From a virus (Duplodnaviria; Heunggongvirae; Uroviricota; Caudoviricetes): a stretch of 15,350 nt of DNA. The translations under genes and the position numbers were made by a program. Below are positions 1,926 to 11,282 of this stretch, in pieces (within the stretch, counting starts at the first letter, position 1; each line of letters starts with the position of its first letter). The stretch lies in IMG/VR virus record IMGVR_UViG_2690316153_000018. One strand, 5' to 3'. The notes beneath the pieces are model-generated. The model worked only from the letters and a program-made list of their open reading frames with translations. It ran no database searches and was not told where the DNA came from.

Positions 1926-3029
1926 TCAAACAATCTGGAAAATATTTCTTGGATTTGTAATAGGTCTGTTGATGGAGAACAACTCACGAATTAAATCTTG
2001 GCTCAAGCCAGTTTTCATAAGAATTCTTAGCCAGGTTGCATCATCCAGCATTTCAATCGCCTCGGCCAGCATACCGGGTTCTTCAGGGCGCAAAAGTTCA
2101 TCACCAGGTTCAACTCTCGTATACCCTCTGGAATTAAGATGCATATAGCCAGTTCTTGCCTGTTCCTGGGTCAATAAGCCTAATGCGCTGGCTCGATAAA
2201 TACACATTTTAAGGCTGATTTTCCATCTAAGTTTAAATTCAACCAGAGCATTCCAGTCGAATTGCTTACCTCGTATTCGTGGAAATTCTTTAATGAAAGA
2301 TAACCTGGGAACTAATAAGGCGCTCGAAAAGTGATCGGCTTGTGATTCCGTAAGTTTATCACCTGTCGTTATGCCCTCATGCATTACTAAATGCCCTAAT
2401 TCATGACCTAAATCAGAGCGAAATCTACATATGCTTTTTTTAACATTGTTCCTGATGATAACAGGCCTGTTATTGTGAACAGTAAAAGCATCAACACGAT
2501 CATCGACTCCCGTAACATGCGCAACGATTACCCCTAAACTCTCCGCCAATTTAACCATTGATGATATAGGGCCAAGACCTAAATTCCAGGCACGGCGACA
2601 ATCTTCTGCCACTCGCTCAATATCATTCGGAGTAAGTAATTCAGCCCCTGGGTGCTCCGGTATGTTAACGTCAGGAAATTCGATTTCACCTTCAACAGCA
2701 GAAATTATAATATTAAGAATCTCAGCCCTGGCCAATACACTATTAGTCAGCGTTTGAGTCCTGGACTTCTTACTCCGAAAATGGCAGACATCACTTTCCA
2801 GAGCGTATTTTCGTTCAGTAAAAAGAAAACTGGACTTAATCATAAGCGCTGAAGATATTAACTCAAGACATTGCTCCGATGGCCTGCACCCCTTCTCCAG
2901 TTTGCTAACGAATTGCTTTGTCTTGCCAATTTTTTCGGCTAACTCTTCACAAGAAAGCCCAACAGCCATTCTCGCTAGTTTGAGCTTATCACCCCGATAC
3001 TCAGTGAAGTTATTCACCTGATGTTCCAT
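1926..3029 (-). CDS. Fusion protein: N-terminal XRE-family helix-turn-helix + C-terminal ImmA/IrrE-type (COG2856/DUF955-like) zinc metallopeptidase
   Basis: N-terminus LKLARMAVGLSCEELAEKIGKTKQFVSKLEKG is a typical XRE HTH. HExxH motif present in DLGHELGHLVMHEG. ORF track starts at GTG 3032; an ATG at 3029 is the likelier start. The 5' end overlaps the stop of the upstream gene by about 20 nt. Confidence 0.8.
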   Translation of the reverse strand: MEHQVNNFTEYRGDKLKLARMAVGLSCEELAEKIGKTKQFVSKLEKGCRPSEQCLELISSALMIKSSFLFTERKYALESDVCHFRSKKSRTQTLTNSVLARAEILNIIISAVEGEIEFPDVNIPEHPGAELLTPNDIERVAEDCRRAWNLGLGPISSMVKLAESLGVIVAHVTGVDDRVDAFTVHNNRPVIIRNNVKKSICRFRSDLGHELGHLVMHEGITTGDKLTESQADHFSSALLVPRLSFIKEFPRIRGKQFDWNALVEFKLRWKISLKMCIYRASALGLLTQEQARTGYMHLNSRGYTRVEPGDELLRPEEPGMLAEAIEMLDDATWLRILMKTGLSQDLIRELFSINRPITNPRNIFQIV

Positions 3030-3660
3030 CACTGCTCACATCCAAATCTTTATCCTTCGTACGCCGACGAAGAGGCACCTTATTAATCTCCGCTTCGTCA
3101 GGGAGTGTGTTATAATCAAGAGGCATAAGCGGCATCGATGCTGTAGATTGATGAGAAACTATACTAATCTGAGCACCATAAGTATTAAATCCAACAAGAG
3201 CTACCTCCCAACGAGGCAGTGTGGACTCTAATTCACCATCGCCCTCTTCGGATAAAAAAGGCTCAGCTATGACTCGCCATGTAATATCTTGCTCAGCCTC
3301 AACATCACCAAACAATGAGAGTTGCTCATACTCTACTTTATTTCGACGCAGACGATGTTTCTTTTTGGGGTTATTAATGCAATCTTTGGTAAATTGTAGC
3401 GGAACTTTATTTAAAGCAACTACATAGTCCAACCCCTTGGAAATCATCTCAAGGCCAGGAATTGCATCTTCATTTTGAATAAGATGATTTCTGACCCAAT
3501 CATAAGCCCTTACACCTTCAGACCAGTTGCTGTCTAATGCGTGCTTATGATAGTACAGCTGCTCAAGTACGTTAGCGATCTCCGCCAACAAGTGGCGAAC
3601 ATAGTTTTCAGCAAGATAAGGTTGAAATTCCCAACAAGGAGCTAACTGATTTTCATTCAT
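3010..3660 (-). CDS. hypothetical protein (216 aa), translationally coupled to the downstream HTH-peptidase gene
   Basis: ORF with ATG at 3660; its stop (3012..3010) overlaps the start of the HTH-ImmA gene. No motif I can assign. Confidence 0.7.
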   Translation of the reverse strand: MNENQLAPCWEFQPYLAENYVRHLLAEIANVLEQLYYHKHALDSNWSEGVRAYDWVRNHLIQNEDAIPGLEMISKGLDYVVALNKVPLQFTKDCINNPKKKHRLRRNKVEYEQLSLFGDVEAEQDITWRVIAEPFLSEEGDGELESTLPRWEVALVGFNTYGAQISIVSHQSTASMPLMPLDYNTLPDEAEINKVPLRRRTKDKDLDVSSDGTSGE

Positions 3661-3695: not shown

Positions 3696-3724
3696 ATATT
3701 TTCGCATTTTTCTATTTTTGTCAA
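3696..3724 (-). promoter_or_regulatory. Candidate sigma70 promoter for the 3660..1926 cassette (minus strand)
   Basis: Minus strand has a perfect TTGACA (plus coords 3724..3719), a 17-nt spacer, then a weak -10 AAATAT (3701..3696), about 35 nt upstream of the ATG at 3660. Judged by eye only. Confidence 0.3.
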
Positions 3725-3736
3725 CCAGACTAATGC

Positions 3737-3756
3737 AAAAACCCGCCGAAGCGGGT
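3737..3756 (-). terminator. Rho-independent terminator-like hairpin (minus strand), identical in sequence to the one at 1902..1921
   Basis: Plus strand aaaaaCCCGCcgaaGCGGGt; the minus-strand transcript is the same hairpin followed by UUUUU. It lies about 70 nt downstream of the hokD stop. Confidence 0.45.
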
Positions 3757-3825
3757 TAAGTGCGGGTGCGTTGAGGATGCCTGGCACATCAGAGGTGGCG
3801 GGAGATTACTCCCCCGCCGGGTCTC

Positions 3826-3981
3826 TTACTCCTCAGGTTCGTAAGCTGTGAAGACAGCGACCTCCGTCTGGCCGGTTCGGATTCGTACCTCGCAGAGGTC
3901 TTTCCTCGTTACCAGTGCCGTCACTATGACGGTTAAACAGATGACGATCAGGGCGATTAACATCGCCTTTTGCTGCTTCAT
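3826..3981 (-). CDS. hokD: Hok/Gef-family small membrane toxin (51 aa from the internal ATG; the ORF track extends to 4038)
   Basis: Translation MKQQKAMLIALIVICLTVIVTALVTRKDLCEVRIRTGQTEVAVFTAYEPEE has a single TM helix and the conserved C-terminal Cys/Arg/Tyr-Glu pattern of Hok-family toxins. Matches my recollection of E. coli HokD (RelF). Confidence 0.8.
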   Translation of the reverse strand: MKQQKAMLIALIVICLTVIVTALVTRKDLCEVRIRTGQTEVAVFTAYEPEE

Positions 3982-4660
3982 AGCCTGCTTCTCCTTGCCT
4001 TTCGGCACGTAAGAGGCTAACCTACGTGTGTAGAGCATAGATATGGCCTCAGATTAATGTTAAGCGTCTTGCCGGACGCGTAATGTTAACTGGGGCTTTT
4101 CTCTATCTGCCTTTGGTGTTGATGCCCGAGGCAGATAGCCTCAAGCACCCGCAGCAATTCTACTTAACTACCGTTACCTCGCCAATATGAAATCAATCAG
4201 AAAGGTGATCCATAAGAACAACAGCAAGACAATAAATTGCCATTACAGCAGCAATAGCCAGCGCACATTTGAGAACCAGCACCACAACCTCCTGTATTGG
4301 ACGTACACCAGTCCTGATAAATATGAGGCTGTCTCGTCAGTGATTCAATACAACTACTGGGTATAGTTTCTATGATTTTGTTCTGTGGAAATGGAAAACA
4401 GCAACCAGTCACCACCAGCACTTCTTTAAACATGCCAAGTCACACGCAAGCCAACATTATAGTTCCCTTTGAGCGAGCAGATGAAGCTAGCAAAAATATT
4501 GATCACTTAGGATGCATTACTAACGTTGCTATGTGTTAACGAACAGGGAGTGGGTCATCAGCATAAATATTTATGCAGTAGGTTTCTTTTAGGACTAGAT
4601 TAATCAAAAACATTTAGATAAAATTATAAAATCAAGAAATTGGTGGCAATTAATCTTTAA

Positions 4661-4689
4661 TTGTGCCAGCTGAATTTCGTTATTATAGA
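4661..4689 (+). promoter_or_regulatory. Candidate sigma70 promoter for the membrane-protein/methyltransferase operon
   Basis: TTGTGC (4661..4666), 17-nt spacer, TATAGA (4684..4689), about 35 nt upstream of the ATG at 4725 in an AT-rich leader. By eye only. Confidence 0.3.
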
Positions 4690-4724
4690 AGATTAGCTTT
4701 TTTTTTGAGTGTTTGGAGAGTAAA

Positions 4725-5420
4725 ATGTTAGAACCACCAAAGAGTTATAATGAAATGTTGCCTATGCTCCATAAGGCGACTTTTATTACTACATTTATAT
4801 TTTACCTATCATTAGTCATTTATGGCTACATGCCATTGGTTGGCATTAATGCCAAGTATATCCCCCCCGTTAAAGACTACGAGGAATTTATTAAATGGAT
4901 ATTAACCTTTGGCATATTACCAATTGCATCTTCAGTTTTTTGGTCAGTAATTAGTGGAGCTTTAGATCTACATAATAATGTAGCAAAAATTATTGGAATA
5001 AGGAAGATGTGGGATAGTCATTTAATTATTAAACCATTAGCAAAAATTGCAGGCGTTACGAGAAAATTAACTACTGATGAATCTCACAAGGTAATGAGTA
5101 AACTGTATTACCCAGAAGTTAAAGAGTTAAAAGACAAACATTACGTTGAACTTTTCTGGAACAAAGTTTATTACTTTTGGGTTTTCTTTGAACATACAGT
5201 AATCGCATTTGTTACTATTTTAATAATAAGTATCGCCAAATTAACAAATATATTCTCTGTTACTGGCTCTTTAATTAATCTTTGGTTGTGGATTATTTCT
5301 CTTGTCGCATTTGACTTCCTTATTTTCATAGCATCAGTTAAACCAAGAACAGAAAGCCAAGTAAGACAAATACCTGATAGCAAAATAAAAGAATTCTTTA
5401 ACAATAACAATATTTTTTAA
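4725..5420 (+). CDS. Integral membrane protein with four predicted TM helices (2 TM + ~65-aa loop + 2 TM), function unknown
   Basis: ATG at 4725 preceded by GGAGAG at about 5-nt spacing (the ORF track starts at TTG 4713). Four hydrophobic stretches: ATFITTFIFYLSLVIYGYMPLVGI, FIKWILTFGILPIASSVFWSVISGAL, VYYFWVFFEHTVIAFVTILIISIA, TGSLINLWLWIISLVAFDFLIFIASV. Codon usage is strongly AT-rich. Confidence 0.8.
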   Translation: MLEPPKSYNEMLPMLHKATFITTFIFYLSLVIYGYMPLVGINAKYIPPVKDYEEFIKWILTFGILPIASSVFWSVISGALDLHNNVAKIIGIRKMWDSHLIIKPLAKIAGVTRKLTTDESHKVMSKLYYPEVKELKDKHYVELFWNKVYYFWVFFEHTVIAFVTILIISIAKLTNIFSVTGSLINLWLWIISLVAFDFLIFIASVKPRTESQVRQIPDSKIKEFFNNNNIF

Positions 5421-5426
5421 ACGAGG

Positions 5427-6086
5427 TTGATTTTGAATTACAAAATAAATGGAATAAACATACGTTCAGAAAATGCAGCGAAACCGCACACTATGCCATC
5501 TAACTATCTCTGTAAACAGATTGAAAGCACTAATAAAAATGGCAATGCCCTTGATTTTGGATGTGGAAAACTTAGATATTCAGAACAATTAGTAAATAAA
5601 TTTGAAACTGTGACATTTTTAGATTCCAGAAGACAACTAGAAAGAGTGCAAATTATCAGAGGTGTACAAACCACGATTCCAGATTACGTGATAAATAACT
5701 ATAAGAATGCTAATATTGTTTCTTATGAAAATATAGATAAAATAACAAATCATTATGATTTCATACTTTGCGCAAACGTGCTTTCCGCAATTCCATGTGA
5801 ATCCACAATTCACAAAGTCCTCAGTGCGATTAGAGAATTATTAAAGAGTGATGGTGAAGCACTGATTGTCAATCAATACAAAAGTTCTTATTTCAAGAGG
5901 TACGAGAGCGGTATTAAACATTTGCATGGGTATATATACCAAAACTCTCGCAATGCTTTCTACTATGGTTTATTAGATGTGGATACTGTAAGTAAAATAT
6001 GCTCAGATAATAATTTAGAAATAATAAAATCATGGAGCAAAGCAGGTAGTTCATATGTGGTTGTTGGTAAACATATACATATTTAG
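5427..6086 (+). CDS. Small class-I SAM-dependent methyltransferase-fold protein (about 217-219 aa), substrate unknown
   Basis: Motif I ALDFGCGKL, acidic residue ending beta-2 (TVTFLDS) and a motif-IV-like YDFILCANVLSAIP. Start is TTG at 5427 or 5433; GAGG at 5423..5426 gives good spacing to 5433. The first in-frame ATG is at 5493. Lies 6-12 nt after the stop of the membrane-protein gene. Confidence 0.7.
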   Translation: MILNYKINGINIRSENAAKPHTMPSNYLCKQIESTNKNGNALDFGCGKLRYSEQLVNKFETVTFLDSRRQLERVQIIRGVQTTIPDYVINNYKNANIVSYENIDKITNHYDFILCANVLSAIPCESTIHKVLSAIRELLKSDGEALIVNQYKSSYFKRYESGIKHLHGYIYQNSRNAFYYGLLDVDTVSKICSDNNLEIIKSWSKAGSSYVVVGKHIHI

Positions 6087-6400
6087 TTTATTTCAACAAA
6101 TTATTAGAAAGAGTGATTTGCTTGTTAATTATTAGCTCGGCAGTGCCGGATCAACATGACCCTGCCACTTAGGCCATTGCCGGTTTACCTACTTTTGTAA
6201 GGTTCAGCATGAAGTTTTTATATACTCTTCCTAATATCAATAGTGATGCTCGCTTATGTTAGCTGCTTCTTGTACATAGTAGCCTTCTCCGACAGTACTG
6301 CAATGAGCGGAGAGTAAAAGTCGATAAACAATAAGGAGGTTCACAATAAATATTTCTCGGTGAAACTTTCAAAGCATTCTCTGTTTTGCTAAATCGACAA

Positions 6401-7300
6401 TTATAAATCAACAACATTTAGTGTTATATCAATATTATTTAGCCTTGCAATCTCTGATGAATCACTTGCTATTTTAGCTTTTAATTTATCAATATTAATC
6501 ATATCTTCATGGCTTATATAAACCATATCACCTTGGTTAACTTTAGATTTGTTCACTATGGCTTGAATAACAGACAAATCATCCATTACACCTCTCATAA
6601 ATTTCACCATGCTTTGATCTTTGAAGTCAGATATCGATTTTGAACGTTGCTTACGTTGAATTGTTCCTTTTGTAATTACTTCATTAATTTCTTTTAAACC
6701 AGTGAGCATATCAGACAGACTGCCTTCGCAACTCATCCGATGTTTTATTGCATTGCGATTAATAATATTGAGTATAATTTCGAGTGAATCTTTATCACTC
6801 CATGGATGTAATGATGTATAATCATGATGACGTCGAATGGCGTCAATCATATCCTGGACCATATCTTCATCTGCTTTATCGCAAAGTTCATTCACGAAAT
6901 AGCTGGGGTCGATTATTTTACAATAACTTGGAGTTAGGTATCTTGAGGCTTTACAAAAACCAAAAATATATAAAGTAGAGTATTTATCTTTCAGACTCTC
7001 TCCTATTTCATTTATTTTCTCAAAAGATTCGATAGTTTTTTTAATTTTTGCTGGACTTGCATTCGTAGTAACTTGAACTGCTATCATGTTTTTATTATCA
7101 GCTAAATCAATGGCGGGAAAATTAACTTTAATCTGATTCATGTTTACCAGCTCACCCATTTTCAGCGCGCGAAACATAAAGATGGTCAATGACTCAATTA
7201 TTCTTTCCATGTCATGAAAGCCTGCCTGTTTGCGTTGCGCGATATAAAGCTGGAGTAGTGCAATATCACTCTGTAAGTTTCTAATAAGTGGATCAATCAT
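6401..7300 (-). CDS. hypothetical protein (299 aa); N-terminal region resembles, from memory, a SMEK-type domain
   Basis: ORF with ATG at 7300 and AAGGA about 9 nt upstream. N-terminal HDMERIIESL and NFPAIDLADNKNMIAVQVTTNASPAKIKKTIESF resemble the signature I associate with SMEK-domain proteins; not verified by HMM. AT-rich codon usage; convergent with the 4725..6086 operon. Confidence 0.75.
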   Translation of the reverse strand: MIDPLIRNLQSDIALLQLYIAQRKQAGFHDMERIIESLTIFMFRALKMGELVNMNQIKVNFPAIDLADNKNMIAVQVTTNASPAKIKKTIESFEKINEIGESLKDKYSTLYIFGFCKASRYLTPSYCKIIDPSYFVNELCDKADEDMVQDMIDAIRRHHDYTSLHPWSDKDSLEIILNIINRNAIKHRMSCEGSLSDMLTGLKEINEVITKGTIQRKQRSKSISDFKDQSMVKFMRGVMDDLSVIQAIVNKSKVNQGDMVYISHEDMINIDKLKAKIASDSSEIARLNNIDITLNVVDL

Positions 7301-7552
7301 AGCTAATAATCCTTTTCAATGAAGCTGGAGGTGTGTTTAACTATTAGTTAAATTTCTATTTTTATAGAAACAAGCTTTACAACTTCATCAAAGTTTCTCA
7401 AATCCTAATCCACTTTGCAAATCCACTAACCATGCTGAATGCTTTCTGTTGTTAAACATATCCGCTGCTGGCACCAAGCAGACAAACACACTAACTCTAC
7501 CCTACTCCACAAAAGAGCCAATCAATATCTGAACTAATAAACTTTAATCTCA

Positions 7553-7975
7553 TCACTTCAATAAATATCGAGCATTTCCCTGATAGAATGCTAGTATGCG
7601 CTGCATAACTTCACTCTTCCGGCACTCGCGACAGATTATGTTCTGACGCCTGTCGTAGCGACGTATTTCTCCGTCAGGTAATGACCAGATAAGGTCCGGA
7701 TCAACCGCAGATGGTTCCTTCAGCTTTGCCCTTGAGAGCTTTTTACGGGCATTTTGCCAGTCCTTACGCGCCTGTTCAGACGGGAATAACCCGTAACCAG
7801 AGTTGTATACATCGCCGCTGGCAACCAGCTCTCTTGCGAGAACGCTCATCAGATATCTTGTCGCACCTGTCTTGACTTCCAGTTGCCGTAACGTCTCACG
7901 CCCACTCCGGCGTACGAGTTCAACAACCTGCCCTTTAATTTTTTCCCGCTCTTCTTGTGTAAAAACTTTTGCCAC
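7553..7975 (-). CDS. hypothetical phage protein (140 aa) in the replication-module position
   Basis: GTG start at 7975 preceded by a perfect AGGAGG at 4-nt spacing; begins 40 nt downstream of the O-like gene. Basic, possibly nucleic-acid-binding; no motif assigned. Confidence 0.7.
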   Translation of the reverse strand: MAKVFTQEEREKIKGQVVELVRRSGRETLRQLEVKTGATRYLMSVLARELVASGDVYNSGYGLFPSEQARKDWQNARKKLSRAKLKEPSAVDPDLIWSLPDGEIRRYDRRQNIICRECRKSEVMQRILAFYQGNARYLLK

Positions 7976-8015
7976 AAGCCCTCCTGAAAATTACCTCATG
8001 ACCAGAAATTAACAC

Positions 8016-8981
8016 TTACCCCCTGAAGCCCGGCGGAATTTCGGTATCCGGCTCAGAAATATGATTCACACAACGCTGTACAGACGAACGCCCCAGGCGG
8101 ATAACCAGTTCATCCCATTTTTCGCGAAGCTTTGACGGACTCATGATATTTTTTACCCAGAATGGATCCCGCTGCACCCGACCAAACATTTCACAAATTT
8201 GTCTGTGAGTTCTGCCATCCAGCATCCGCATTGTGCGCACGTCGTTGGCCCATGCGGTCCAGTTGGGTTCTTTCGGTCGCGAAATCTCGCCATCATCGCT
8301 GGCGGCCTGCTCGTAAAGACTCACGATTCGCCCCCAGATCCACTGCGCACACGCCAAATCTTCCTGGCTGCCCCACTGGCGTTTTTTCGCACTGAACACA
8401 ACCGCGTCAGGGTGTCGGGTTAAAAAATCCTGTTCAACCGTCTGCGGGTCCGGTTGCGAAGCTTCCGGACGAGAAGTCTTTTTATTCTCTGTAGTAATCT
8501 CTGTTGTATTCTCTGTAAGATCATCAGGCCATTTTGACCCGATGACATTGAGTCGTTTTGAACCAATGGAGCGTTTCATTTTGACCTCTTCCATCGTGTC
8601 ATTTTGACCTGATGGAGCGGCGCATTTTAAACCGATGGATTCGCTCAATTTGCCACCATCTAAAAGCTCGCTCCCGTAGTTGATCGTGTAGAAATTGGTC
8701 ATATCGCGCTTTGATTTATTGAGCTTTTCACAACGCAAAAGCCCCAGCGTTTTCAGACTTGCAAACGCGCGCTTTAACGTTGACTCTGACCAGAATGGGA
8801 ACTGTTCCAGCCATTGTTCCGTTGTGTTATAAATCCAGCGAACACCATCACATTCCATGCCGGAGTTGGTATCTCTCAACCAGTAGTGCAGTTGTTGCAA
8901 AACAATGGCTTCGTTTAAGCCAATTTTCATTGCCAGCTGCGTGTTTATAACCAGTGGGCGTTCAGCAAAAAGAAGACTCAT
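8016..8981 (-). CDS. Phage replication initiation protein, O-like / replisome-organizer family (tentative)
   Basis: ORF track starts at TTG 9035; the ATG at 8981 (MSLLFAERPLVINTQLAMKIGLNEAIVLQQLHYWL...) has GGATGGA upstream. The N-terminal winged-helix-like region resembles phage replication-initiator N-domains, and the gene sits where O sits in lambdoid phages, downstream of cro. Confidence 0.6.
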   Translation of the reverse strand: MSLLFAERPLVINTQLAMKIGLNEAIVLQQLHYWLRDTNSGMECDGVRWIYNTTEQWLEQFPFWSESTLKRAFASLKTLGLLRCEKLNKSKRDMTNFYTINYGSELLDGGKLSESIGLKCAAPSGQNDTMEEVKMKRSIGSKRLNVIGSKWPDDLTENTTEITTENKKTSRPEASQPDPQTVEQDFLTRHPDAVVFSAKKRQWGSQEDLACAQWIWGRIVSLYEQAASDDGEISRPKEPNWTAWANDVRTMRMLDGRTHRQICEMFGRVQRDPFWVKNIMSPSKLREKWDELVIRLGRSSVQRCVNHISEPDTEIPPGFRG

Positions 8982-11229: not shown

Positions 11230-11282
11230 TTTCTGGTGACGTTTGGCGGTATCAGTTTTACTCCGTGACTGCTCTGCCGCCC
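11230..11282 (+). ncRNA. dicF: DicF small regulatory RNA (53 nt), an Hfq-dependent ftsZ-targeting sRNA processed from the dicB-operon transcript
   Basis: Sequence TTTCTGGTGACGTTTGGCGGTATCAGTTTTACTCCGTGACTGCTCTGCCGCCC followed by TTTTT matches DicF as I remember it, in the expected position between ydfC and dicB after a roughly 340-nt untranslated leader. Confidence 0.7.

What the first reader, a model, noticed from the sequence alone, without database searches (positions are those of the whole stretch)
5427..6086. Orphan small SAM-methyltransferase-fold protein coupled to the membrane protein, with a non-ATG start
The protein has the class-I methyltransferase motifs (DFGCGKL, FLDS, DFILCANVLSAIP) but at about 219 aa is too small to carry a DNA target-recognition domain and lacks the DPPY/NPPY-type motif of DNA amino-methyltransferases. 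It is therefore more likely a small-molecule, RNA or protein methyltransferase, or a SAM-binding sensor. The frame opens with TTG (5427 or 5433) after GAGG, and the first ATG is 22 codons in, so the start needs experimental definition. Tight spacing after the membrane-protein stop suggests co-translation.
Basis: partly seen in the sequence, partly recalled or inferred. Interest (0 to 1): 0.65.

Follow-up and report, generated by a model that had tools for sequence, protein, structure and literature searches.

The report
YmfD-like methyltransferase with membrane partner
The gene is real and encodes a small non-DNA SAM-methyltransferase, a diverged copy of the uncharacterised E. coli K-12 prophage gene ymfD, that is always paired with a four-helix membrane protein (YmfE-like); the pair sits where prophages keep anti-phage genes, so it is a good but untested candidate for a new kind of phage-defence module.

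Summary
**Observation:** confirmed. The ORF, the three class-I methyltransferase motifs, the lack of a DPPY motif, the non-ATG start and the tight coupling to the upstream membrane gene are all real.

**Start codon:** TTG 5433 (217 aa), not TTG 5427 and not the internal ATG.

**Identity:** not an orphan. It is an allele of E. coli K-12 e14-prophage YmfD (68% identity). The membrane protein is YmfE (60%). Both are named but functionally unknown.

**New here:**
- YmfE+YmfD is a strict two-gene cassette in about 50 of 52 loci across 10 or more phyla, in either gene order, with no third conserved gene.
- Natural fusions exist: YmfE-YmfD in one polypeptide, and YmfE-TIR in four lineages.
- The cassette has lower GC than its flanks in 48 of 48 loci.
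- It rides on lambdoid and P2-like prophages and on a conjugative element, next to Lit, McrBC, Hachiman, Lamassu or SIR2.
- In this window it fills a hokD-DUF977 slot that holds AbiH, AIPR or SIR2 in sister prophages.

**Best reading (about 0.5):** a membrane-anchored methyltransferase conflict or defence module. Substrate and trigger are unknown.

The parts
4725..5420 (+). YmfE-like inner-membrane partner, 231 aa. It has four transmembrane helices (about 8-32, 52-80, 138-173 and 183-214). A conserved basic cytoplasmic three-helix insert lies between TM2 and TM3 (residues 82-133) and carries the family signature LHDxISDxFxIRxxFD...FYxYAS...WxWFW.
5421..5432 (+). Intercistronic junction. ACG (5421-5423) is the remnant of the ATG start used by sister alleles. 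GAGG (5423-5426) is the Shine-Dalgarno sequence, 6 nt upstream of TTG 5433.
   Evidence: The allele comparison is. L011, Pectobacterium, Yersinia and K-12 have TAA-ATG at this position. The window has TAA-ACG-AGG. Providencia has ATA-GAGG followed by TTG.
5433..6086 (+). YmfD-like class-I SAM-dependent methyltransferase, 217 aa, with a TTG start and a TAG stop. Motif I lies at 5553-5573. The acidic end of beta-2 (FLDS) lies at 5616-5627. Motif IV (DFILCANVLSAIP) lies at 5757-5795. A conserved N-terminal hairpin plus loop (NIRSENAAKPHT) is encoded upstream of the first ATG.
4300..7400 (.). Low-GC cargo island (30-35% GC against 45-55% in the flanks). It fills the hokD-DUF977 slot of the prophage. 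It contains the ymfE/ymfD-like pair and a convergent SMEK-domain gene (6401-7300, minus strand).
   Evidence: The composition profile is. The same slot holds AbiH, AIPR, SIR2, DUF4209 and other cargo in syntenic E. coli prophages. The pair has lower GC than its flanks in 48 of 48 loci.

Best explanation
The gene encodes a catalytically competent class-I SAM-dependent methyltransferase of the YmfD family. It does not act on DNA. It works as an obligate pair with the upstream YmfE-like four-helix inner-membrane protein.

**Proposed working model**
- The two genes are co-transcribed and translationally coupled. The methyltransferase starts at TTG 5433.
- The methyltransferase docks on the cytoplasmic face of YmfE, against its C-terminus and the conserved TM2-TM3 insert.
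- There it methylates either YmfE itself or a membrane-proximal molecule.
- The pair is a self-contained, horizontally mobile cassette carried by prophages, conjugative elements and defence islands.
- It most likely serves inter-element conflict: anti-phage abortive infection or superinfection exclusion.
- In that model YmfE is the membrane sensor/effector, and the methyltransferase sets or reads its state.
- In some lineages a TIR (NADase-type) effector is added to YmfE's cytoplasmic tail.

**What is shown:** the fold, the conserved SAM-binding motifs, the start site by comparative evidence, the strict pairing, the fusions, the mobility and the hotspot position.

**What is inferred:** the physical complex, the defence role, and which partner is sensor and which is effector.

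**What is unknown:** the substrate and the trigger.
For: **Fold and motifs**
- Pfam hits pass their cut-offs.
- The AlphaFold model has pLDDT 90.3.
- D41, G43, D64, E99 and N115 are invariant.

**Identity**
- The pair is 68% and 60% identical to K-12 YmfD and YmfE, in the same order.

**Pairing**
- My own HMM finds the partner adjacent in about 50 of 52 loci from Proteobacteria, Acidobacteriota, Planctomycetota, Verrucomicrobiota, Nitrospirota, Bacillota, Actinomycetota and others.
- Gene order is E>D in about 38 loci and D>E in 12.
- No third gene is conserved: Pfam gives a maximum of 5 of 147 (LysR regulators), and blast clustering a maximum of 5 loci.

**Fusions**
- P0302 is YmfE(1-225)+YmfD(231-444), E 3e-40, found on 4 contigs from 3 samples.
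- YmfE-TIR_2 fusions occur in L057, L058, P0225 and P0234, with the methyltransferase gene immediately upstream where DNA is available.

**Conflict context**
- In e14 the order is attL-ymfD-ymfE-lit-intE.
- In the window the pair fills the hokD-DUF977 slot, which holds AbiH, AIPR or SIR2 in sister prophages.
- In a Pectobacterium conjugative element it lies directly after McrBC.
- It lies at the ends of P2-like prophages in Yersinia and Providencia.
- In Pseudomonas it lies directly after Hachiman HamA/HamB.
- LmuB, SIR2, resolvases, integrases and transposases occur among the neighbours.
- The pair has lower GC than its flanks in 48 of 48 loci.

**Start site**
- The comparative evidence for TTG 5433 is.
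Against: - No experiment links ymfD or ymfE to phages. No paper in the searchable library pairs these genes with a phage phenotype.
- e14-bearing K-12 has been used for decades without such a phenotype being noticed (own knowledge).
- Neither protein matches any PADLOC v2 model, apart from a weak generic methyltransferase hit to mad2, E 1e-4.
- Many loci have only housekeeping neighbours such as LysR, glycine-cleavage or ABC-transporter genes. I ran no background control, so enrichment for defence genes is qualitative.
- The partner is absent from 50,697 sequenced phage genomes.
- No sigma-70 consensus promoter was found upstream of the pair.
- ymfD and ymfE are not SOS-induced in K-12 (PMC11002266).
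- The structural neighbours are metabolic enzymes, which fits a metabolic role equally well.
Confidence: 0.5

Rival explanations
1. A fitness 'moron' that modifies a small molecule or membrane lipid. YmfE would present or transport a membrane-associated or toxic compound, and YmfD would methylate it. The purpose would be detoxification or envelope remodelling, with no role in phage defence. This is analogous to TehA/TehB.
For: - All structural neighbours are small-molecule O/N/C/S-methyltransferases.
- The Pfam TehB hit passes its cut-off, 24.4 against 20.4 bits.
- A membrane protein plus methyltransferase operon echoes tehAB.
- Deleting ymfD reduced early biofilm formation in K-12, and ymfD was induced in mature biofilms (PMC3105296).
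- Many loci have metabolic neighbours.
Against: - The NCBIfam TehB equivalog models score 28-29 bits against cut-offs of 218-303.
- YmfE has four helices and no transporter-like fold or family.
- TIR fusions to YmfE are hard to fit into a metabolic role.
- No metabolic gene is a conserved neighbour.
- The pair is placed in Abi/SIR2/AIPR hotspots and next to Lit, McrBC and Hachiman.
Confidence: 0.2
2. A toxin-antitoxin or addiction cassette. YmfE would be a membrane-damaging toxin and YmfD its neutraliser, and the pair would stabilise the mobile element that carries it.
For: - It is a compact two-gene cassette with overlapping reading frames, found on mobile elements and patchily distributed.
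- It sits beside other toxin-antitoxin modules: hok/sok and RmrTA in the window, and YoeB/YefM in Marinobacter.
Against: - The Keio ymfD knockout is viable and grows normally with ymfE intact (PMC12096079; the same strain was used in PMC3936739).
- The SAM-binding and catalytic motifs are invariant across phyla, which a stoichiometric antitoxin would not need.
- Both gene orders occur.
- A covalent E-D fusion is maintained in nature.
Confidence: 0.12
3. An RNA methyltransferase (tRNA wobble, rRNA or mRNA) that the prophage uses to tune host translation. The membrane protein would be only a co-transcribed neighbour.
For: - Trm9, a tRNA (cmo5U34)-methyltransferase and E. coli CmoA are among the best structural matches.
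- m6A-seq peaks dropped in the ymfD knockout (32 against 602). [quoted passage not shown]
Against: - 23S rRNA m6A2030 is unaffected in the ymfD knockout (PMC3936739).
- The strict, order-independent pairing and the covalent fusion with a membrane protein are not expected for a soluble RNA enzyme.
- The protein has no RNA-binding extension. It is only 217 aa long, essentially a bare catalytic domain.
Confidence: 0.08
4. An orphan DNA methyltransferase, used for epigenetic marking or anti-restriction.
For: - Prophages often carry orphan DNA methyltransferases (own knowledge).
- There is a weak PADLOC hit to the MADS methyltransferase mad2, E 1e-4.
Against: - There is no DPPY/NPPY-type motif IV and no target-recognition domain.
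- No N6_N4_Mtase, N6_Mtase or DNA_methylase Pfam hit is found.
Confidence: 0.02

Closest known systems
YmfD (b1137) and YmfE (b1138) of the E. coli K-12 cryptic prophage e14
   Same: - The proteins are homologous over their full length: 68% identity for the methyltransferase and 60% for the membrane protein.
- The gene order and tight junction are the same.
- Both pairs are low-GC prophage cargo next to a defence gene (lit in e14).
   Different: - It is a different allele in a different prophage type (Qin/Rac-like lambdoid) and at a different position: the hokD-DUF977 slot rather than between attL and int.
- The ATG start has been lost and replaced by TTG with a new GAGG.
- A SMEK gene accompanies it.
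- The K-12 genes themselves have no known function.
Two-gene prophage or defence modules made of a small polytopic membrane protein plus a cytoplasmic partner: lambda RexB/RexA and Kiwa KwaA/KwaB
   Same: - The architecture matches: a roughly 4-TM inner-membrane protein plus one soluble protein (own knowledge of these systems).
- They are self-contained two-gene cassettes carried by prophages or defence islands.
   Different: - There is no detectable sequence similarity: the partner protein has no PADLOC hit.
- The soluble partner here is a SAM-methyltransferase, an enzyme type not known in those systems.
- This is a resemblance recalled from memory, not a tested relationship.
CheR and the methyl-accepting chemotaxis proteins
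   Same: A class-I SAM methyltransferase acts on the cytoplasmic helical part of a membrane protein and so sets its signalling state. This is a possible mechanistic analogue (own knowledge).
   Different: - There is no homology beyond the shared Rossmann fold.
- No demethylase (CheB-like) is conserved nearby.
- Methylation of YmfE is hypothetical.
TehA/TehB tellurite-resistance pair
   Same: - It is a membrane protein plus a small class-I methyltransferase encoded in one operon.
- The Pfam TehB model matches above its cut-off.
   Different: - The NCBIfam TehB equivalog models are missed by a wide margin.
- YmfE is unrelated to the 10-TM TehA/SLAC1 family: no Pfam hit.
Bacterial TIR-domain defence proteins (Thoeris ThsB, PADLOC candidate system PDC-S66)
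   Same: In four lineages the YmfE partner carries a C-terminal TIR_2 domain that matches ThsB and PDC-S66 models, E down to 5e-57.
   Different: - The window's YmfE-like protein has no TIR domain.
- No ThsA-like partner is present.
- The TIR is appended to a family-specific membrane domain that is always paired with the methyltransferase.

Membership tests
Class-I (Rossmann-fold) SAM-dependent methyltransferases | Glycine-rich motif I (E/DxGxGxG) after beta-1 | tested here: met
   The motif LDFGCGKL occupies residues 40-47. D41, G43, C44, K46 and L47 are invariant in 42 homologues.
Class-I (Rossmann-fold) SAM-dependent methyltransferases | Acidic residue at the end of beta-2 that binds the ribose hydroxyls of SAM | tested here: met
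   D64 in the motif TFLDS is invariant, and strand 59-64 is present in the model.
Class-I (Rossmann-fold) SAM-dependent methyltransferases | Seven-stranded beta-sheet Rossmann-like fold | tested here: met
Class-I (Rossmann-fold) SAM-dependent methyltransferases | Curated profile score above threshold | tested here: met
   Methyltransf_12 scores 35 bits (cut-off 30), Methyltransf_23 34.2 (27), Methyltransf_11 23.8 (21.2) and TehB 24.4 (20.4).
Class-I (Rossmann-fold) SAM-dependent methyltransferases | Binds SAM and transfers a methyl group | not testable with these tools
   This needs biochemistry.
YmfD/YmfE pair (e14 prophage, E. coli K-12) | Full-length homology of both proteins and the same adjacent arrangement | tested here: met
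   The methyltransferase is 68% identical over 212 aa (E 4e-113). The membrane protein is 60% identical over 230 aa (E 2e-108). In both loci the E gene is upstream of the D gene.
DNA amino-methyltransferases (N6-adenine / N4-cytosine) | (D/N/S)PP(Y/F/W) catalytic motif IV | tested here: not met
   The sequence has no PP dipeptide. Motif IV is CANVLSAIP.
DNA amino-methyltransferases (N6-adenine / N4-cytosine) | Target-recognition domain, and similarity to DNA methyltransferase structures or profiles | tested here: not met
TehB tellurite-resistance methyltransferase | Equivalog-level profile match, and a TehA partner | tested here: not met
   NCBIfam NF008405 scores 28 bits (cut-off 218) and NF008992 scores 29.1 bits (cut-off 303). 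The upstream protein has no TehA/SLAC1 family hit.
Catalogued anti-phage defence systems (PADLOC-DB v2.0.0) | Match of the component proteins to a system's models | tested here: not met
   The methyltransferase gives only a weak hit to mad2 (E 9.7e-5). The membrane partner and three distant orthologues give no hit.
Anti-phage defence systems (functional definition) | Expression reduces phage plating or burst | not testable with these tools
   No report was found in the searchable literature.
Anti-phage defence systems (functional definition) | Genomic association with known defence genes and mobile-element cargo hotspots | tested here: inconclusive
   The qualitative evidence is positive. The pair lies next to Lit, McrBC, Hachiman, Lamassu LmuB, SIR2 and SMEK in different loci. 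The window's slot holds AbiH, AIPR or SIR2 in sister prophages. No background-corrected enrichment statistic was computed, and many loci lack defence neighbours.
Type II-like toxin-antitoxin modules | Loss of the antitoxin is lethal or growth-arresting while the toxin gene is intact | tested here: not met
   This comes from the literature on the K-12 allele only. The Keio ymfD knockout did not negatively affect growth (PMC12096079). Expression level in K-12 is a caveat.

The most novel reading that the evidence does not exclude
YmfE/YmfD is a widespread, so far uncatalogued two-gene anti-phage system. Its enzymatic component is a non-DNA, small-molecule-type or protein-type SAM methyltransferase tethered to a dedicated membrane protein.

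It would be the first defence system that works through methylation of something other than DNA. Possible modes:
- A methylation 'safety catch' on a membrane effector that lapses when a phage depletes SAM or blocks the enzyme.
- Methylation of a phage or host molecule at the site of genome entry.

It would also mean that E. coli K-12 has carried a copy of such a system (e14 ymfED, next to lit) unnoticed.
Probability: 0.35. Interest if true: 0.8.

Novelty: new variant of a known kind. Interest (0 to 1): 0.55.

Why it matters
- **Possible function for two K-12 y-genes.** ymfD and ymfE are long-standing genes of unknown function in E. coli K-12. This analysis turns them into a defined, testable unit: a strict two-gene cassette found in 10 or more phyla.
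- **Topology is now predictable.** The natural fusions place the methyltransferase at the cytoplasmic C-terminus of the membrane protein.
- **Link to immune effectors.** In four lineages the membrane protein carries a TIR domain.
- **If it defends against phages.** It would add a new enzymatic logic, non-DNA methylation at the membrane, to bacterial immunity. It would also make the hokD-DUF977 slot of Qin/Rac-like prophages a useful place to look for further systems.
- **If it does not.** It is still a conserved membrane-anchored methyltransferase with an unknown substrate.
- **Practical point.** Many database records annotate a truncated 197-aa protein that starts at the internal ATG. That form lacks a conserved N-terminal element.

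Tried and rejected
- **DNA methyltransferase or R-M reading:** rejected. There is no DPPY motif, no target-recognition domain and no structural neighbour among DNA methyltransferases.
- **TehB membership:** rejected on the NCBIfam equivalog cut-offs.
- **TTG 5427 as the start:** rejected. It has 0 nt spacing to GAGG, and the family start aligns with 5433.
- **Internal ATG as the start:** rejected. The N-terminus is conserved, with invariant Y3, N14, A16 and K17, and codons 2-21 show an excess of synonymous changes.
- **A third conserved gene:** searched for by Pfam counts and all-against-all clustering, and none was found.
- **SMEK as part of the system:** it travels with the pair only in the window lineage and in a Pectobacterium conjugative element. 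It is absent elsewhere, so I treat it as separate cargo.
- **Possible link to the 4-TM 'Lipocone' superfamily:** the paper makes no mention of this family, and no Pfam hit supports a link.
- **Literature:** I found no functional study. ymfD knockouts were negative for 23S m6A2030 and for growth, and ymfD was not solely responsible for mRNA m6A. The DefensePredictor text and its stored (truncated) supplements contain neither the accessions nor the peptide strings.
- **Promoter scan:** it found no sigma-70 consensus promoter upstream of the pair.
- **P0309:** this protein joins a truncated YmfE to a TraG-like ATPase. I judged it a disrupted gene, not a functional fusion.

Full report
**1. The observation**

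The window is an early/accessory region of a Qin/Rac-like lambdoid prophage of E. coli. An identical stretch in strain FORC 064 is annotated, in order: dicA/dicC, ydaT, a replication O-like gene, DUF977, a SMEK-domain protein, a class I SAM-dependent methyltransferase, a hypothetical protein, hokD, an HTH protein, and nleB2.

ORF 5427-6086 (+) is present. At the local base composition, a 219-codon stop-free frame has a probability of about 5e-9.

Each falls on invariant or near-invariant columns of a 42-sequence alignment that reaches 40% identity. Pfam Methyltransf_12, Methyltransf_23, Methyltransf_11 and TehB all pass their gathering scores. The protein has no PP dipeptide and hence no DPPY-type motif.

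The upstream gene (4725-5420) encodes a 231-aa protein with four hydrophobic helices. It ends 12 nt before TTG 5433.

**2. The start codon**

GAGG lies at 5423-5426. It touches TTG 5427 and lies 6 nt upstream of TTG 5433. PGAP uses 5433.

Comparative evidence settles the choice as far as computation can:
- Distant homologues (Neptuniibacter, Pseudomonas, Marinobacter) begin with ATG or GTG at exactly the codon equivalent to 5433 (M-R-Y-K/L-I/V-x-G).
- Most enterobacterial alleles (K-12, L011, Pectobacterium, Yersinia) have an additional TAA-ATG start four codons upstream.
- In the window that ATG is ACG. The same two substitutions (ATGGGG to ACGAGG) create the GAGG.
- Providencia has the same solution (ATA, GAGG, TTG).

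The first ATG, 20 codons further in, is used in many NCBI records. They annotate a 197-aa protein, for example P0007, which is seen on 734 contigs. That form would remove a conserved N-terminal element with invariant Y3, N14, A16 and K17. Codons 2-21 show synonymous:non-synonymous counts of 10:4, 7:3 and 7:4 against K-12, Yersinia and Providencia. The rest of the gene runs at about 1:1. This region is therefore translated.

**3. What the protein is**

It is 68% identical to YmfD (b1137) of the K-12 cryptic prophage e14. The upstream protein is 60% identical to YmfE (b1138). The order is the same, and the K-12 junction is TGA-ATG.

Both K-12 genes are uncharacterised:
- The ymfD knockout keeps 23S m6A2030 (PMC3936739).
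- It did not negatively affect growth and is not solely responsible for mRNA m6A (PMC12096079).
- A point mutation in ymfD was neutral in an evolution study (PMC6828540).
- Deletion of ymfD lowered early biofilm formation (PMC3105296).
- Neither gene is SOS-induced (PMC11002266).

The AlphaFold model (pLDDT 90.3) is a class-I Rossmann methyltransferase with two additions. One is an N-terminal beta-hairpin followed by a flexible, strongly conserved loop (SENAAKPHT). The other is a small hairpin insert after beta-2 that carries invariant Q68, R71 and Q73.

**4. The partner and the pairing**

The YmfE-like protein has no Pfam, NCBIfam, PHROGs or PADLOC hit.

Its model (pLDDT 90.5) has four long membrane helices and a three-helix insert between TM2 and TM3. 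That insert is basic (13 K+R against 8 D+E). It carries the family signature LHDxISDxFxIRxxFD...FYxYAS...IDxHLVxxALDxWxWFW, with invariant H83, R93, Y129 and W152.

A scan of one genome per species found 52 loci that encode a YmfD relative, in 10 or more phyla. An HMM I built from the upstream proteins finds a YmfE relative directly adjacent in about 50 of them. The partner is upstream in about 38 loci and downstream in 12. Overlaps or gaps of -20 to +14 nt are typical. The exceptions are contig ends or damaged genes.

No third gene is conserved. The commonest neighbouring Pfam family is LysR (5 of 147), and the largest blast cluster spans 5 loci. This is a self-contained two-gene cassette whose pairing survives inversion of gene order.

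**5. Fusions**

P0302 (459 aa) is YmfE(1-225) followed by a complete YmfD-like domain. That domain begins at the canonical MHYRVLG and is 34% identical to the window protein (E 3e-40). The identical protein is encoded on four contigs from three samples.

The methyltransferase needs cytoplasmic SAM. So YmfE's C-terminus, its N-terminus and the conserved TM2-TM3 insert are all cytoplasmic, which agrees with the positive-inside charge distribution. The variable TM1-TM2 loop faces the periplasm.

Four independent YmfE proteins (L057, L058, P0225, P0234) carry a C-terminal TIR_2 domain. It matches ThsB-like and PDC-S66 models (E down to 5e-57). The methyltransferase gene lies immediately upstream wherever DNA is available. 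One of them also carries an Lcl_C domain.

P0309, a truncated YmfE joined to a TraG-like ATPase, looks like a disrupted gene.

**6. Context**

The pair has lower GC than its flanks in 48 of 48 loci, with a median difference of 9.3 points. In the window the island is 30-35% GC against 45-55% in the flanks.

Where the pair is found:

| Host or element | Position and neighbours |
|---|---|
| E. coli K-12, prophage e14 | attL-ymfD-ymfE-lit-intE |
| This window | Between hokD/sok and DUF977, together with a convergent SMEK-domain gene |
| Pectobacterium conjugative element | McrB-McrC, then E, D and a convergent SMEK gene, then type IV secretion genes |
| Yersinia, P2/186-like prophage | After the integrase, at the prophage end |
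| Providencia, P2-like prophage | After gpD-ogr, at the prophage end |
| Pseudomonas | Directly after Hachiman HamA/HamB |
| Other loci | LmuB, SIR2, ResIII, N6_N4 methylases, resolvases, integrases, transposases, YoeB/YefM, a Tse2-type ADP-ribosyltransferase |

The window's slot is a cargo hotspot. In syntenic E. coli prophages, the same hokD-DUF977 interval holds an AbiH-family gene plus one other, an AIPR-family gene, a SIR2-family gene, DUF4209, QueH plus an ATPase, an alpha/beta-hydrolase, and others.

The full island is present in 146 of 5426 complete E. coli genomes. The partner is absent from 50,697 sequenced phage genomes and occurs on three plasmids.

**7. Interpretation**

Shown:
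- A class-I methyltransferase with intact SAM-binding motifs.
- An obligate genomic partnership with a dedicated membrane protein.
- The topology, inferred from a natural fusion.
- Mobility, and placement among defence genes.

Inferred: the two proteins form a complex at the inner face of the membrane, and the cassette serves inter-element conflict (abortive infection or exclusion).

I put about 0.5 on that. The direct evidence is association plus the TIR fusions. There was no background-controlled statistic, and no phenotype exists.

I cannot say which partner senses and which acts, or what is methylated. Candidates are YmfE's invariant H83 or R93, a lipid, or a metabolite.

Rivals:
- A metabolic or envelope 'moron' analogous to TehAB: 0.2.
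- A toxin-antitoxin cassette: 0.12. The viable ymfD knockout and the invariant catalytic motifs count against it.
- An RNA methyltransferase: 0.08.
- A DNA methyltransferase: 0.02.

**8. Novelty**

The gene and its partner are named K-12 y-genes, so the bare annotation is not new.

I found none of the following in the searchable literature or in PADLOC v2:
- The cassette's strictness across phyla.
- The E-D and E-TIR fusions.
- The hotspot placement.
- The start-codon history.

I rate the finding a new variant of a known kind: a two-gene cassette of a membrane protein plus a cytoplasmic partner, carried as mobile-element cargo. The enzyme type, a non-DNA methyltransferase, is not known in such cassettes. 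If the defence role is confirmed, it would be a new kind of system.

Noticed in passing
window 6401-7300 (-): A SMEK-domain protein (299 aa) is convergent with the methyltransferase and lies in the same low-GC island. It matches Pfam SMEK_N (E 2e-22) and the N-terminal nuclease part of a PADLOC short-Argonaute partner model. The same E, D, convergent-SMEK block occurs in a Pectobacterium conjugative element (L068). SMEK is absent next to the pair in e14, Yersinia, Providencia and the distant loci. It is probably a separate single-gene defence candidate.
   Followed up: partly
window 3700-8300; loci L064, L065, L066: The interval between hokD and the DUF977 gene is a variable cargo slot in Qin/Rac-like E. 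coli prophages. Sister prophages carry AbiH plus one other gene, AIPR, SIR2, DUF4209, QueH plus an ATPase plus DUF1627, an alpha/beta-hydrolase (O157:H7), or DUF7167 at this position.
   Followed up: yes
window 1926-3032 (-) and 3010-3660 (-): An RmrA-like (HTH plus M78 peptidase, E 6e-105) and RmrT-like (E 5e-25) gene pair overlaps by 23 nt. RmrA-like genes also lie directly beside the YmfE/YmfD pair in two Bacillota loci (L036, L039). That could be coincidence or a recurrent association.
   Followed up: partly
window 3826-4038 (-) and 3976-4150 (-): A hokD toxin gene (Pfam HOK_GEF, E 3e-23) lies here with its sok antisense RNA (Rfam RF01794, 114 bits). Together they form one border of the cargo slot.
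   Followed up: yes
window 5421-5435; alleles in L002, L011, L068, L070, L072: The start codon has changed within the family. The ancestral start is at the 5433-equivalent codon. Enterobacteria gained a TAA-ATG start four codons upstream. The window allele lost it (ATG to ACG) while creating a GAGG Shine-Dalgarno for the TTG. Many NCBI records instead annotate a 197-aa protein from the internal ATG (for example P0007, 734 contigs), which is probably a wrong start.
   Followed up: yes
window 11231-11282 (+): A DicF antisense RNA lies here (Rfam RF00039, 76.7 bits). This fits the dicA/dicC/dicB immunity region annotated in the identical E. coli record.
   Followed up: no
window 4197-4433 (-): A 78-aa ATG-started ORF lies at the GC transition between sok and the cargo island. 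It has no family hit and is not annotated in RefSeq. A terminator-like hairpin lies inside it at 4258-4239.
   Followed up: no
records NZ_CP148483.1 and NZ_CP148498.1 (hits H1, H2): In two chicken isolates an IS4-like ISVsa5 element is inserted inside the stretch that corresponds to window 4400-6400.
   Followed up: no
L034 8384-10681; L042 1025-2729: Two Acidobacteriota loci have an extra ORF or spacer of 330-685 nt between the YmfE-like and YmfD-like genes. This differs from the usual overlap. The L042 partner is truncated to 121 aa.
   Followed up: no
L057 671-3214: This 847-aa protein combines the YmfE domain, a TIR_2 domain, a further hydrophobic segment and a C-terminal Lcl_C domain (Pfam E 5.5e-16). 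It is the most elaborate architecture seen for the family.
   Followed up: partly
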